A DNA stretch of 64,000 nt, from positions 92,194,001-92,258,000 of the forward strand of contig OX597815.1 of assembly GCA_951406725.2 (NCBI GenBank), read 5' to 3'. This document shows, in pieces, positions 12,734 through 17,400 of the stretch. A program made the translations under genes and the position numbers. The notes under the pieces are model-generated. The model was not told the DNA's origin, searched no databases, and saw only the letters and a list, made by a program, of their open reading frames with translations. Every line of letters starts with the position of its first letter. Position 1 is the stretch's first letter. This stretch comes from Octopus vulgaris (taxonomy: Eukaryota).

Positions 12734-13525
12734 TTTTAATATTGTTAATAATTATTATATAATATAGACCTTAGGATATAAATTAAATAACGTTTAATAT
12801 TGTTTACATATTGTATAATAATTATTGTATAATTAGCCTTAAGATTAAATTAAATAACGTTTAATATTGTTTTAATATTGTTAATACTTCTTCAGATACT
12901 CTATCTTCTAATATAGCCTTAAGATTATATATTAAATAACGTTTAATATTACCCACACTCTAATATAATATTAACATTGCTAATATATTTTCAGATACTC
13001 TATCTCCTGATATAGCCTTAAGATTAAATAACGTTTTTATCCACACTCTATATATAATATTAATATTGCTAATATATTTTCAGATACTCTATCTTCTAAT
13101 TAGCCTTAAGATTAAATTAAATAACGTTTAATATTAATAACGTCTAATTAGCCTTAAGATTAAATTAAATAACGGTTTAATATTGCTTAATATTGTATAT
13201 ATAATTTTTCAGATACTCTGTCTTCTAATTAGCCTTAAGATTAAATTAAATAACGTTTAATATTACCCACACTCTAATATAATATTAATATTGCTAATAT
13301 ATTTTCAGATACTCTATCTCCAAATTAGCCTTAAGATTAAATAACGTTTTTTTATACCCACACTCTACATATAATATTAATATTGCTAATATATTTTCAG
13401 ATACTCTATCTCCTAATTAGCCTTAAGATTAAATAACGTTTTTACCCAAATAACGTTTTTACACAAACTTTAATGTTGTTAATATTTCTTTTTCAAGTAC
13501 TCTATCTTCTAATTAGCCTTAATAT
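12734..13525 (+). repeat. AT-rich tandem monomer array (about 10 units, 48-99 bp); putative LINE 5' UTR/promoter
   Basis: GCCTTAAGATT at 12836, 12916, 13015, 13103, 13151, 13232, 13328 and 13420, with variants near 12767 and 13516; also TAACGTTT and CAGATACTCTATC blocks. Confidence 0.85.
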
Positions 13526-13583
13526 CTTCCTGTCTTCTCTCGAACATAATTAGATAGATAAACGGATAGACGGATTATCCAGC

Positions 13584-14359
13584 ATGTCCAGAGCATGGAG
13601 ACGTGACGAGCTGGATTTATTCGTACGAGCATGGGAGTGCGCCGGCGGAGATAGCCCTAGCGAGGTGATTGCGGCTGCGCTGAAGAGCAGAGGCTACAAG
13701 AGGACAGCGGCTCAGATGGAGCGAAAGAGACAGGAATTCGTGCGCTCATATGCGCTTGTACGGTCGCACATTGGCGCACTTGATGCCATCTTTGAGAACG
13801 AGCGGGGTAAAGATGGCAAGAATGGAGACGATGAAAGAAGTCACCCCCACCTGGTGGACGCCCAGGAGGAGGTTTTGAATGAGAAACCTGCCCGGGAAGT
13901 GAACCCAGGTGCAAGTTCTCCAACCGGCAGCATACCTGAGAGGTTCCTGCTAAAGGAAAAGAAAAAAGCTCAAGCATGGAAAGGAAGGATGGAACCAAAC
14001 AGCGCAGGCTGCCGCTGGCATTTGGCACATCGGGGACCCTGCCACAGAGACACGAGGCAGATGGACAAACCATCAACACAAAGAAAAGGGATGGACCACG
14101 CACCACCTGCCCCAAAGCGGAGGTACGCAGATGTACAGCGCGTCACACAAACAGCCAACATGATGTTAGCCGAAAGAGCAGTTGCTGAGCAACAATCTTT
14201 TTGTGCATGGCACAAAAGATTGTACAGCAGCTGACCTGGCTTCATCAAACCCAAGCCCGCAGGTGGGACTACCCACTATATACCAGACCACCACAGCAAA
14301 CAGACACAGGATGGACACCGCCGGCAACAACGTACACCTCACCTCGATACTCCTACTGA
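13584..14359 (+). CDS. LINE ORF1 with N-terminal trihelix/Myb-SANT-like domain (one apparent 1-nt frameshift near 14200)
   Basis: WRRDELDLFVRAW...VIAAALKSRGYKRTAAQMERKRQEFVRSY...LDAIF. Restoring one T in the T-run gives SFLCMAQKIVQQLTWL, identical to ORF1 of copy C, with stop at 14357-14359. Confidence 0.75.
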
Positions 14360-17296
14360 ACATCAGAGGACTGCAAACACTCAGTAACAGGACAAAGATC
14401 CCGTTCCTGAGAGACTTTGTTGCATGCAATCAAGCCATATGCATAGCACTTACAGAAACGCACCTGAAACCGGACATAGCAGATGCGGAGTTGCACACAT
14501 ACCACAGTATGCTGTACTACGGACCGACAGGAAAGAAAGGAGTCATGGAGGTGTTGCTATGTACATCCGTGAGGACCTCACACCCCAGGTCCTCTTGTCA
14601 TACTCAAACTCGGTGTGTGACACACTAATTGTACATATTAGGCAACTTGATGTAGTTGTGTGTGCTACATATCGCCCTCCAGATGCCCCAAGCCATGTGG
14701 GCAAGTTTGAAGACTGCCTTATAAAAATAGAAGAAATTCTAACCACATTAGAACAACACATAGGTGTGCTTCTTATGGGAGACTTCAATCTGCCCAATGT
14801 CAGATGGCCCGAGGGCCTTTCTCTCCCAGGAATGACAAGATGTGAACGAGGACAGGCGAGGTCCCTCCTGAACCTCACCAACACCCTGTACATGGAGCAG
14901 GTAATACTCCAACCAACCAGGGCAGGTAACACACTGGATCTCTGCTTCACAAATGACATGGATCTCATCCATAATGTGAAAGTGACACCGACACTACTCT
15001 CGGATCACAACATGATAGAGCTGACCATGTACGGGCCAAAAGAGAGCACGGACATGCAGCTCTACAAGAAACCTCAAAATCTTTCCAGCTTGAACTACCA
15101 TAAGGCAAACTGGAAACAAATTGAGAAAGAGATCCTCAAACAAAACTGGCCTAAATGTCTCTCCTCGCCAGACATCGACGTGAAACTTCAACAATTCATG
15201 TCTGTAATGCAAGCCATATGCTACAAATGTGTCCCAGAGAGAAAGGCCACTGTACACAAGAACAAAATCCCCAGAGAGAGGAAAATTTTAATGAGACGGC
15301 GTACGAAATTTTCAAATCGCCTAAACAAACAGATTGAAAGCAGTGAAAAGTCCCGCCTAAAAATAAAACTGTTGGAAATCGAAAAATGTCTGCAACTCTC
15401 CCATGAAAAAGAAAGAGCAGACAAAGAAGCCTGGGCTATAGAAAACATAAAATCTAACCCCAGAGCTTTCTACAGGTATGCCAAAGAAACAGCTACAGTG
15501 CACTGTAGAATAGGGCCACTCCTCGAAAAGGATGGCACACTTACAGGAAAACCAATGAGGGTAAGTGAAATACTGAATGAGCAATTCAAGAGTGTTTTCA
15601 CTCCACCCCTTGGGCATCTCCAAATCACCAATCCAACTGACTTTTTTACCACTGCAGATATAAAATCAGAGGCGGCGACGATAGATTACATCGATATAAA
15701 GGAAGACGATGTAACCAAGGCTATAGATGAAATGAAAACAGACTCAGCTACTGGCCCCGATGGATTCCCGGCAATCCTCCTAAAAGCATGTAAGAGAGTC
15801 CTAGCAAGACCACTGCAGTTCCTCTTTTCAGAGCTTCCTTGCAGCTGGCAAACTTCCAGGAAAACTGAAGGAAGGTAAAATATGCCCCATTCATAAAGGA
15901 GGTAGCAGAGCGGAAGCCAAGAACTATAGACCTATCTCTCTGACCTCACACATCAGCAAGGTCATGGAACGAATAGTCAGAAGGAAGCTGATCACCTTCC
16001 TTGAAGAGAATGACTTGCTGCCCGACACCCAACATGGTTTCCGACCAGGGAGAAGCTGTTTAACTCAGCTCCTACAACACTATGACTGGGTGCTGAAACG
16101 GCTGCTCAACCACTCAAATGTGGAAGTGATATATCTCGACTTTGCAAAGGCCTTTGATAAAGTCGATCATGGAATGATATGTCACAAACTGCGTGATCTC
16201 AACATAGTTGGAAAACTGGGAGAATGGCTTCATGACTTTCTGAAGGATAGAAGTCAGGTGGTAGTAGCCAATGGGGCCACCTCCATTAACACACAAATAG
16301 TGAGCGGTGTTCCGCAGGGCACTGTTCTGGGACCACTACTGTTCATAATGGCCCTCTCAGACATGCCCTCAGCCACGCAGAGAGCCACGATCACAAGTTA
16401 TGCAGATGATACAAAAGTTTCACAGGCAATACAGAACCCTGAGGACACTAAACACCTGCAATGTGAGCTGGACGAAATATACAAGTGGGCTGAAAAGAAT
16501 AGCATGCAGTTCAATGCTGGAAAGTTTCAAGCTTTATACTATCAGCATGCAAAACTGAATGCAATACCCAATGAATACACTGGACCCGGAGGGATTGCAA
16601 TCCCAGAGGCACAATCAGTGCGTGACCTGGGTATTCACATGAGTGATGACGCGACCTTTCATGTACATGTTGCTAAACTGACAATGAAATGTAGACGGCT
16701 GGCTGGATGGATTCTTAGAACCTTTAGAACAAGAGAACAAGAAACCATGATGGTCCTCTGGAAGACACTTGTCCTAAGCCACTTTGACTATTGCTCTCAG
16801 CTATGGTCACCATCCAGTGTCAAGTTGATCACAGAACTTGAGGCGATCCAACGAAGCTACACAAAGAAGATAGCCTCTATGCAGAATGTAAGCTACTGGG
16901 AAAGACTCAAGAGATTAAAATTATATTCCCTGGAGCGTAGGCGGGAAAGATATGCCATAATATACATCTGGAAGATCCTGGAGGGAAGTGTCCTGAACTT
17001 TGGCATCGAGAGTTACGCAAATGCCAGAACTGGGCCACTGCGTGGTGCCTAGGACTCCAAACCTGCCATCAAGATGTAGGACAAGATTCTGTGATAGCCT
17101 GGGCTTCCGAGGCCCACAGCTCTTCAATATCCTCCCGAAGAACCTGAGAGACCTGCATGGGGTGGATACAGATGTCTTTAAAATGAAGCTGGATCTCTTC
17201 CTGTCAGGTGTCCCAGATGAACCAACTTCACGGCAGGAGGGGCAGATGAGGGCAGCTGCATCGAACTCTCTCATGCACCAAATAGCAGTCTGCTAG
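14311..17296 (+). pseudogene. LINE ORF2 (APE endonuclease + RT), split by a few small indels
   Basis: APE motifs LLNIRGL, ALTETHL, YRPP, MGDFN, TLDLCFTN, SDHN; RT motifs as in copy A; frameshifts near 14497, 15830, 17033 and 17290. Confidence 0.92.
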
Positions 17297-17400
17297 AAAG
17301 CCTCCATGAAGTGAAACCAAGTAGCAACACCAAATGGCGGTGCCCCAGCATGGCCACAGCTCATAAGCTGAAACATAGAATCAATCAATCAATCAATCAA

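What the first reader, a model, noticed from the sequence alone, without database searches (positions are those of the whole stretch)
12734..17400. Full-length CR1-clade LINE whose ORF1 begins with a trihelix/Myb-SANT DNA-binding domain
Seen: ORF1 (from 13584) starts MSRAWRRDELDLFVRAW-ECAGGDSP-SEVIAAALKSRGYKRTAAQMERKRQEFVRSY...ALDAIF. It reads in frame into sequence homologous to ORF1 of copy C and overlaps an APE-RT ORF2. Established: the pattern W-x3-E-x3-(L/F)-x3-W...IA-x2-L-x3-GY-x-RT-x2-Q-x3-K...Y...LD-x-I is the signature of trihelix Myb/SANT-like domains (Myb_DNA-bind_4 type; plant GT factors, MSANTD proteins, the Myb-like partner protein of PIF/Harbinger transposons). CR1/L2 ORF1s are known to carry RRM, PHD, CCHC or esterase modules; I know Myb domains in non-LTR elements from R2-type single-ORF proteins, not from CR1 ORF1. 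Inference: this LINE may have acquired a dsDNA-binding module, which could bind its own 5' monomer array or steer insertion into (TA)n. Caveat: the second Trp and the usual Cys/Trp of helix 3 are substituted and the first loop is short.
Basis: partly seen in the sequence, partly recalled or inferred. Interest (0 to 1): 0.88.

Follow-up and report, generated by a model that had tools for sequence, protein, structure and literature searches.

The report
Myb-domain ORF1 in octopus LINEs
Several abundant jumping-gene (LINE) families in this octopus genome begin their first protein with a Myb-type domain, a fold usually used to bind DNA, and a conserved slippery sequence likely lets ribosomes fuse that domain to the cutting-and-copying enzyme, which might help steer new copies into the TA repeats where they sit.

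Summary
The Myb/SANT-like domain is real. It is not a chimera and not a recent capture. At least 150 loci carry it at 91-100% identity. Six LINE families here (RT down to 44-47% identical) share one ORF1 plan: Myb, disordered linker, CCCH finger(s), C-terminal helix. Relatives pass Pfam's PF13837 cut-off, profile-profile probability is 98.5%, and AlphaFold gives a Myb/GARP-like three-helix fold. The window copy is not full-length: it is 5'-shortened, has lost its CCCH finger and is frameshifted. 'Binds its own monomers' is unlikely, because the monomer core motif occurs in one subfamily only. New here: all six families have a -1 slippery heptamer (U_UUU_UUR, or A_AAU_UUU) at the same place in the ORF1/ORF2 overlap, and two have no AUG before the first endonuclease motif. 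ORF2 is therefore likely made by ribosomal frameshifting, as a Myb-CCCH-APE-RT fusion that recalls the R2 layout. Copies sit in (TA)n, but no Myb-less family was found to test whether Myb causes this. Placement in the canonical CR1 clade is unresolved. No report of a Myb or CCCH ORF1 was found in ten literature searches. New variant of a known kind.

The parts
12657..12734 (.). (TA)n microsatellite, 5' flank of the insertion
   Evidence: TRF; TA-type flank at the 5' junction of all 20 fetched copies
12735..13583 (+). Remnant of the 5' UTR (849 nt of 1.5-2.0 kb); AT-rich monomer array to about 13525, typical of the youngest subfamily A only
13584..13799 (+). ORF1 aa 1-72: Myb/SANT-like (PF13837-type) three-helix domain with an extended helix carrying H-x3-L-x2-I
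13800..14020 (+). Disordered linker and CCCH finger; about 140 nt missing at 13933-14020 in this copy, CCCH finger mostly lost (intact copies: C-x7-C-x8-C-x3-H near aa 174-195)
14196..14203 (+). -1 slippery site (TCT TTT TTG, U_UUU_UUG, in intact copies; five T instead of six here) inside the predicted C-terminal helix of ORF1
14170..17296 (+). ORF2 frame (APE endonuclease + RT); opens just above the slippery site; first in-frame ATG 14311, first APE motif LLNIRG near 14350; in four pieces here, 998 aa from ATG in intact copies
17297..17398 (+). 3' UTR and (AATC)5 tail (17379-17398)
17400..19257 (.). (TA)n-type microsatellite, 3' flank
2534..4597 (-). Second, 5'-truncated copy of the same family (96% identical)
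52536..55700 (+). Copy C: decayed copy of sister family B, with CCCH finger and intact TCT TTT TTG at about 52992; 5' part with the Myb not present in this copy

Best explanation
This is a damaged copy of a young LINE family whose ORF1 is built as Myb/SANT-like domain, linker, CCCH finger and C-terminal helix, a plan shared by six families in this genome; a conserved slippery heptamer likely makes some ribosomes slip into the -1 frame, so the APE-RT enzyme would carry the Myb domain, which likely binds double-stranded DNA and helps hold the complex on TA-repeat targets. SHOWN: domain, fold model, conservation, heptamer, open -1 frame, no AUG in families D and G, TA flanks. INFERRED, strong (about 0.8): ORF2 is made as an ORF1-ORF2 fusion by -1 frameshifting, while most ribosomes finish ORF1p. 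INFERRED from family knowledge (about 0.7): the CCCH finger binds the element's RNA and the basic helix 3 of the Myb binds DNA. INFERRED, weak (about 0.4): the Myb contributes to (TA)n choice.
For: DOMAIN: family E2 copies pass PF13837's cut-off (28.9 and 29.9 bits). 25 of the top 30 PF13837 loci in the genome are LINE ORF1s. hhalign against 13 host PF13837-type domains gives 98.5%. A profile of 14 domains finds LINE-type ORF1s, then host PF13837 proteins, among 1.84 billion. Top fold matches are MYB/GARP/SANT domains (Foldseek E 0.16 and up; Z 8.0, rmsd 1.7 A over 57 residues to ARR1-DBD, GT-1 Z 6.5). W5, E9, W17, I29, R40, Q44, H62, L66 and I69 are invariant in 14 of 14. Identity A vs B is 52-54% in the Myb and 19-22% in the linker; dN/dS is 0.13-0.25 in four of five closer pairs. 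Helix 3 net charge is +2 to +5 in 16 of 16. FRAMESHIFT: A TCT TTT TTG; B, D, E TCT TTT TTA; F ACT TTT TTA; G AGA AAT TTT, so the amino acids change while a heptamer stays. It is the only in-frame U_UUU_UUR in both ORFs of A, D and E, and 0 of 19 other Phe-Leu pairs use it. The -1 frame is open 42-70 codons to the APE motif. No Met precedes that motif in D (2 of 2 shown) or G (17 of 18). Outside octopus, 10 of 11 LINE loci with a -1 overlap have a heptamer in it and 0 of 4 with a +1 overlap do; about 2 of 12 expected, 8 of 9 non-redundant, P about 3e-6. TARGET: 17 of 18 family-A 3' ends run into (TA)n; D 5 of 5, E 2 of 3, G 6 of 8, against 11-19% background. PRECEDENT: R2 ZF-Myb binds target DNA (PMC12203849, passages); TRE5-A needs a -1 frameshift and its ORF1 contacts TFIIIB (PMC5911963, passages).
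Against: No binding or translation data. The window's own domain scores below Pfam's cut-off, and no fold match reaches E 0.001. Helix 3 lacks the usual Cys and Trp; the Trp position is R or K in the A group. No conserved 3' stimulator: only D folds better than shuffles (z about -3), and G has a hairpin starting 12-19 nt downstream that was not tested against shuffles. The Phe-Leu lies in a predicted helix (aa 238-273), so part of its conservation is at protein level. A, B, E and F do have an AUG before the APE motif. The low Myb dN/dS partly reflects a higher dS there (0.8-1.4 against 0.4-0.6 in the linker in the four A2/A3 pairs), and the closest pair gives 0.46. The slippery site also occurs in Myb-less LINEs, so it did not evolve to deliver the Myb. 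No Myb-less family was found in this genome as a control for TA preference. The heptamer rule used was lax (any last base).
Confidence: 0.45

Rival explanations
1. The frameshift fusion exists, but the Myb is a non-specific nucleic-acid or chromatin tether (filling the slot a PHD fills in other ORF1s), and TA preference comes from the APE nuclease and the AT-rich 3' tail.
For: The closest Myb-less relative with ORF1 in hand (L338) has a PHD-like Cys pattern plus CCCH at the matching place (read by eye; no Pfam hit). Myb domains only 23-28% identical go with the same TA preference. The tails are AT-rich repeats. Helix-3 core residues are altered.
Against: R40 and Q44 are invariant and K48 nearly so, and helix 3 stays basic. 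One Myb-less CCCH element (L348) ends in (AAATC)n without a TA tract behind it (one case).
Confidence: 0.33
2. ORF2 is made separately (AUG in the overlap, or AUG-independent reinitiation as recalled for human L1), so the Myb acts only in free ORF1p and the heptamer is a by-product of a conserved Ser/Thr-Phe-Leu helix.
For: An in-frame AUG lies before the APE motif in A, B, E and F. No conserved stimulator. In D the ORF1 stop is 23 codons above the APE motif, leaving room to reinitiate.
Against: Codon choice has probability 0.02-0.035 per family by that family's own usage. G keeps a different heptamer with other residues. In A and G the ORF1 stop falls on the APE motif itself, and G has no AUG above it. 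The A-type Met is Val in subfamily A2. Heptamers are enriched in unrelated -1 overlaps.
Confidence: 0.15
3. One reading: the Myb binds the element's own 5' monomer array and regulates its promoter.
For: Family A has both the array and the domain; the monomers are AT-rich.
Against: The monomer core is absent from 12 of 12 copies of A1, A2, A3, B, D, E, F and G (one relaxed match in A1). A2, A3, B and G have CT-rich UTRs, D and E short ones, yet A2 and A3 keep the domain at 65-72% identity.
Confidence: 0.05
4. A one-off chimera or misassembly joined a host Myb exon to a LINE.
For: The assembly has homopolymer errors, and this copy is damaged.
Against: At least 150 near-identical junctions, six families, and independent contigs across the junction.
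Confidence: 0.01

Closest known systems
CR1/L2-lineage ORF1 types I-V (Metcalfe and Casane 2014, PMC4120745; parts 1-3 of 6 read, plus word search)
   Same: Two-ORF APE-RT LINE with a modular, exchangeable ORF1; an N-terminal chromatin- or DNA-facing module (PHD there) ahead of an RNA-binding one.
   Different: Their 448 elements show RRM, CCHC, PHD, Transposase_22, esterase and zf/lz. 'Myb', 'SANT' and 'CCCH' occur 0 times in the text. This ORF1 fits none of types I-IV and would be an unclassified type V.
R2 retrotransposons (ZF + Myb N-terminal DNA-binding domain; PMC12203849, passages)
   Same: Myb-like domain and zinc finger N-terminal to an RT in one polypeptide, if the fusion is made; biased target choice.
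   Different: R2 has one ORF, a C-terminal restriction-like endonuclease, and ZFs before the Myb, and it targets 28S rDNA. Here there are two ORFs, an APE nuclease, Myb before a CCCH finger, and a microsatellite target. Homology of the two Myb domains was not tested.
Dictyostelium TRE5-A / TRE3-A (L1 clade; PMC5911963, passages)
   Same: APE-type LINE said to need a -1 frameshift for ORF2; ORF1 implicated in targeting.
   Different: Different clade; targets tRNA genes through protein contact with TFIIIB; no Myb reported in the passages seen.
PF13837 Myb_DNA-bind_4 proteins (trihelix GT-1, MSANTD, Harbinger partner; member names recalled)
   Same: Nearest profile family in both directions; W-x3-E-x7-W and R-T/S-x2-Q motifs.
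   Different: Short helix 1-2 loop, no Cys or Trp in helix 3, own H-x3-L-x2-I tail. The LINE domains form one group apart from 13 host domains (support 84), and no donor was identified.
Coccomyxa L1/Zepp ORF1 with HTH_1 (Ivancevic et al. 2016, PMC5203782, passages)
   Same: A helix-turn-helix hit in a LINE ORF1.
   Different: LysR-type HTH in an algal L1-clade element; not Myb/SANT, no CCCH.

Membership tests
PF13837 Myb/SANT-like domain | Score above Pfam's 27-bit cut-off | tested here: inconclusive
   Window domain 20.6 bits; homologous E2 ORF1s 28.9 and 29.9, P0142 29.3, P0151 31.7
PF13837 Myb/SANT-like domain | Three-helix HTH fold of Myb type | tested here: met
   AF2 models; top matches Myb/GARP/SANT/homeodomain-type, Z up to 8.0; predicted, not solved
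PF13837 Myb/SANT-like domain | Profile-profile homology to host members | tested here: met
   hhalign 98.5%, 62 columns
PF13837 Myb/SANT-like domain | Cys and Trp of helix 3 (QC-x2-KW; motif as in the host rows) | tested here: not met
   Q-I/M-x2-K-K/R/L/I/T in all 14
PF13837 Myb/SANT-like domain | Binds double-stranded DNA | not testable with these tools
   Only indirect: basic helix 3
CR1 group (Jockey superfamily) LINE | ORF2 = APE + RT, no RNase H, tandem-repeat 3' tail | tested here: met
   PF14529, PF03372 and PF00078 only; (AATC)n tail
Canonical CR1 clade | RT groups with reference CR1 elements | tested here: inconclusive
   RT 34% identical to two bird proteins taken as CR1. The octopus families sit in their own 100-support clade apart from them, with weak deep branches (84-91). 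No curated L2, Crack, Daphne or Zenon references were available.
ORF1 types I-IV | RRM, CCHC, PHD, Transposase_22 or esterase domain | tested here: not met
   None in Pfam scans of ORF1 of A, A1, A2, B, D, E, E2 and G; the model shows no RRM-sized folded region
R2-type single-ORF elements | One ORF with C-terminal restriction-like endonuclease | tested here: not met
   Two overlapping ORFs and an N-terminal APE
Programmed -1 frameshift site | X_XXY_YYZ heptamer in frame at the start of a -1 overlap | tested here: met
   Six of six families
Programmed -1 frameshift site | 3' stimulatory structure 5-9 nt downstream | tested here: inconclusive
   Only D exceeds shuffles among 7 sites; no conserved pairing with the 3' end
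Programmed -1 frameshift site | Trans-frame product detected | not testable with these tools
   Needs a reporter or proteomics

The most novel reading that the evidence does not exclude
Octopus APE-type LINEs rebuilt the R2 design from other parts: a -1 ribosomal frameshift joins a Myb DNA-binding domain and CCCH finger to APE-RT, and the Myb reads (TA)n and steers thousands of insertions into microsatellites. The -1 frameshift is the general way many invertebrate CR1-group LINEs make ORF2.
Probability: 0.3. Interest if true: 0.85.

Novelty: new variant of a known kind. Interest (0 to 1): 0.63.

Why it matters
It adds an ORF1 architecture (Myb + CCCH) not found in the ORF1 classifications I could read, in abundant LINE families of an octopus genome that still have intact copies. 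It offers a concrete, cheap test of an old question, how two-ORF LINEs translate ORF2: a short reporter and a synonymous control would decide it. If ORF1 modules are covalently joined to the endonuclease, the N-terminal domains that LINEs swap (PHD, Myb) could act directly in target choice. That matters for TE biology and for retrotransposon-based insertion tools.

Tried and rejected
(1) U-run instability as evidence. In the assembly, 37 of the first 100 listed family-D sites and 9 of 100 family-A sites have a run other than T6 (counted by hand from the listings). Short-read contigs show the one-base deletion at under 1% of depth in two runs (12 of 2,496; 15 of 6,029) and 79 of 879 in a third where the main contig seems filtered out. 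Read as assembly homopolymer error and dropped; the few fused 1,300-1,470-aa frames are not used as evidence either. (3) Expression: no RNA holder listed. (4) A Myb-less control family: a PHD-type RT query returned family F (6 of 30 loci checked), which also has the Myb. (5) Donor of the Myb: none identified. (6) Monophyly of the two octopus groups: the tree separates them, but the AU test does not reject one clade (p 0.18), so ancestral retention and ORF1 swapping both stay open. (7) Myb outside octopods: the profile gave no hit in 160 metagenome or MAG LINE loci, and named profile hits are O. vulgaris (4) and O. sinensis (1) among 15 LINE-type proteins looked up; most hits are unnamed, so the range is unknown. 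(8) The PDB sequence search gave only spurious hits. The Atlas gave Myb-family leads under 0.9 for the domain and nothing for family E ORF1. The whole-ORF1 fold search added nothing. IMG/VR gave six weak loci, not examined. (9) Target-site duplications cannot be read inside TA repeats. (10) Literature: searches found no report of Myb or CCCH in a LINE ORF1 or of -1 frameshifting in CR1-group LINEs. Repbase, Dfam, most subscription journals and all supplements were not seen and could hold such notes. No complex prediction was run.
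Full report
WHAT IS AT THE LOCUS. The window lies in a 2.8-Gb genome. The only protein hit of the intact ORF1 is labelled Octopus vulgaris by its source. The ATG at 13584 and the quoted peptide are as described. The element is one copy of a very young family, here called A: all 150 scored loci match aa 1-75 at 91-100%. 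In 30 loci the commonest ORF1 is 303 aa (14 of 30). In 20 fetched copies, 9 have an unbroken ORF2 of 995-998 aa and 7 have both ORFs unbroken. Fourteen of the 20 reach a common 5' end 1.5-2.0 kb above the ATG. The window copy starts about 806 nt into that UTR, lacks about 140 nt of linker and CCCH finger, and has frame-breaking indels. So the family is intact but this copy is not. Contigs of two other runs cross the UTR-Myb-linker junction with 0 and 1 differences, which excludes a misassembly.

THE DOMAIN. Pfam's best hit for aa 1-79 is PF13837 at 20.6 bits, under the cut-off of 27. The case rests on relatives. A genome scan with PF13837 returned five loci with no LINE match, taken as host genes, and then repeated loci; 25 of the top 30 proved to be ORF1s of another LINE family, E/E2, two of whose ORF1s pass the cut-off as whole proteins. 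Alignment across families shows nine invariant residues, including W5 and W17. A profile of these 14 domains found 72 proteins among 1.84 billion. Of the 36 I read, 28 were LINE-type ORF1 starts, four with a complete CCCH motif, and 8 were host PF13837 proteins. Profile-profile probability against 13 host domains is 98.5%. AlphaFold gives three helices from the single sequence (pLDDT 83) and a confident domain with an alignment. The nearest solved folds are Myb, GARP, SANT and homeodomain types, with modest scores as expected for 60 residues. Helix 3 lacks the usual Cys and Trp but keeps R40, Q44 and K48 and is basic in 16 of 16. Between A and B the Myb is 52-54% identical and the linker 19-22%. 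dN/dS is 0.13-0.25 for four pairs and 0.46 for the closest one, though dS is also raised in the Myb, which hints at mosaic ancestry.

AN OLD ORF1 TYPE. Six families (A with subfamilies A1-A3, B, G; D, E, F) share the plan Myb, linker, one to several CCCH fingers, C-terminal helix. RT identity between the two groups is 44-47%. In the RT tree each group has support 100, and both lie in one 100-support clade with many unnamed elements, one from Argonauta. The two groups are not sisters in the best tree, but monophyly is not rejected. Three non-octopus relatives have CCCH ORF1s without a Myb hit (L338, L345, L348). The CCCH core therefore looks widespread and the Myb looks like the octopod N-terminal module. 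Two bird proteins taken as CR1 are 34% identical in RT and fall outside this clade, so 'CR1 group' is fair and 'CR1 clade' is open.

The monomer array belongs to subfamily A alone: 15 cores in an A copy, none in 12 copies of the other families and subfamilies, which have CT-rich or short UTRs. Binding to the monomers cannot explain a domain conserved across all of them. TA targeting is shared: 17 of 18 A 3' ends and all 20 5' junctions abut TA-type repeats, and D, E, F and G behave alike, against 11-19% background. I found no Myb-less family here to separate the Myb from the nuclease or the tail.

THE ORF1/ORF2 JUNCTION. ORF2 lies in the -1 frame and overlaps the last 33-64 codons of ORF1. At the same place in every family the ORF1 frame reads a slippery heptamer: TCT TTT TTG (A), TCT TTT TTA (B, D, E), ACT TTT TTA (F) and AGA AAT TTT (G). 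Among translated loci in hand, 99 of 100 A/B matches, 3 of 3 D and 11 of 13 E carry it; these counts include repeated loci. The -1 frame opens 2-9 codons above the site in A, B, D, E and F (22-46 in G) and stays open 42-70 codons to the first APE motif. Windows of that length are open in the -1 frame elsewhere in ORF1 in 26 of 184 (A) and 0 of 192, 282 and 314 (B, D, E) positions. It is the only in-frame U_UUU_UUR in both ORFs of A, D and E. D and G have no Met before the LLNxxG motif, whose Asn I recall as catalytic in L1 endonuclease. In G and A the ORF1 stop falls on that motif, so reinitiation after the stop would miss it. Five of 7 matched G copies have 1,044 open codons from the site. 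Most genomic copies keep T6, which fits ribosomal rather than transcriptional slippage if the enzyme copies the RNA that made it (inference). In 160 metagenome and MAG LINE loci, 29 had an upstream ORF; 10 of the 11 with a -1 overlap have a heptamer in it and 0 of the 4 with a +1 overlap do. With one hand-picked locus added, 11 of 12 against 2.1 expected; 8 of 9 after removing redundant loci, P about 3e-6. Against this: no conserved stimulator, an AUG is available in four families, and the site lies in a predicted helix. U_UUU_UUA is the HIV shift site (PMC5009743, passages; first 300,000 of 449,034 characters held; its only non-LTR passage concerns HeT-A and TART). Notes from other genomes in this scan describe the same kind of site; I saw them after my own tests, and they are not independent proof.

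HOW IT MOST LIKELY WORKS. Most ribosomes would make ORF1p, which likely coats the RNA through its CCCH finger and basic linker and self-associates through its long C-terminal helix. A minority would slip at the heptamer and make Myb-CCCH-APE-RT. That protein would bring a DNA-binding fold to the nuclease in one chain, as R2 does with its ZF-Myb (PMC12203849, passages), and could favour TA tracts. The frameshift is older and wider than the Myb, so the Myb would have entered an existing N-terminal slot that a PHD-like finger fills in at least one relative. Odds: domain real 0.95, frameshift 0.8, DNA binding 0.7, role in TA choice 0.4.

COMPARISON AND NOVELTY. Metcalfe and Casane (PMC4120745; parts 1-3 of 6 and word search) list RRM, CCHC, PHD, Transposase_22, esterase and zf/lz, and describe ORF1 shuffling as common. 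Word searches in PMC13343379, PMC11203168, PMC5203782 and the octopus LINE paper PMC9115989 found 'Myb' 0 times (passages only). TRE5-A and TRE3-A are the precedent for a -1 frameshift in an APE LINE (PMC5911963, passages). PMC4700185 (passages) added nothing. Ten searches found no report of this ORF1 type, but curated TE databases and supplements were out of reach. A new module in a region known for swapping modules is a new variant of a known kind; the testable fusion mechanism lifts the interest to about 0.63.

Noticed in passing
L161, L163, L164, L172, L212, L338, L344, L345, L348, L353, L359 (metagenome and MAG contigs): LINEs from other, unknown animals with different ORF1 types also carry -1 slippery heptamers early in the ORF1/ORF2 overlap; some have the ORF1 stop right behind the heptamer.
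   Followed up: partly
L319:700-1300 against L157 and L158 5' UTRs: Family G and subfamily A3 share stretches of their CT-rich 5' UTR although G and A RTs are only 72% alike, which suggests UTR swapping between families (read by eye).
   Followed up: no
L031-L050, 5' UTR: Family A's 5' UTR varies from 1.47 to 2.0 kb by monomer number (13-21 cores in 19 of 20 copies), and several copies repeat a unique block about 375 nt apart.
   Followed up: no
L358:58-1359: A LINE ORF1 from a MAG contig holds PHD + NADAR (PF08719, 36.4 bits, above cut-off) + CCHC; a NADAR domain in a LINE ORF1 is unexpected.
   Followed up: no
L141, L145, L157, L158: These LINE families often lie next to or inside each other's TA-flanked copies, as expected if all seek the same repeats.
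   Followed up: no
family A ORF1, nt 387: A one-base G deletion giving a 177-aa ORF1 recurs on different SNP backgrounds (7 of 30 loci have 177 aa); probably a systematic assembly error.
   Followed up: partly
window 7240-10020: Very low-complexity A/T-rich stretch that looks like unpolished long-read sequence.
   Followed up: no
window 10452-10976 and 11398-12425: Tandem arrays of 155 nt (3.4 copies) and 374 nt (2.8 copies) that end at the N gap 12426-12525.
   Followed up: no
window 23495-23539: Short 3'-end fragment of a related LINE directly behind a TA array.
   Followed up: no
L337-L416: Many prokaryote MAGs in the genome collection contain animal-type LINE contigs, most likely host contamination.
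   Followed up: no
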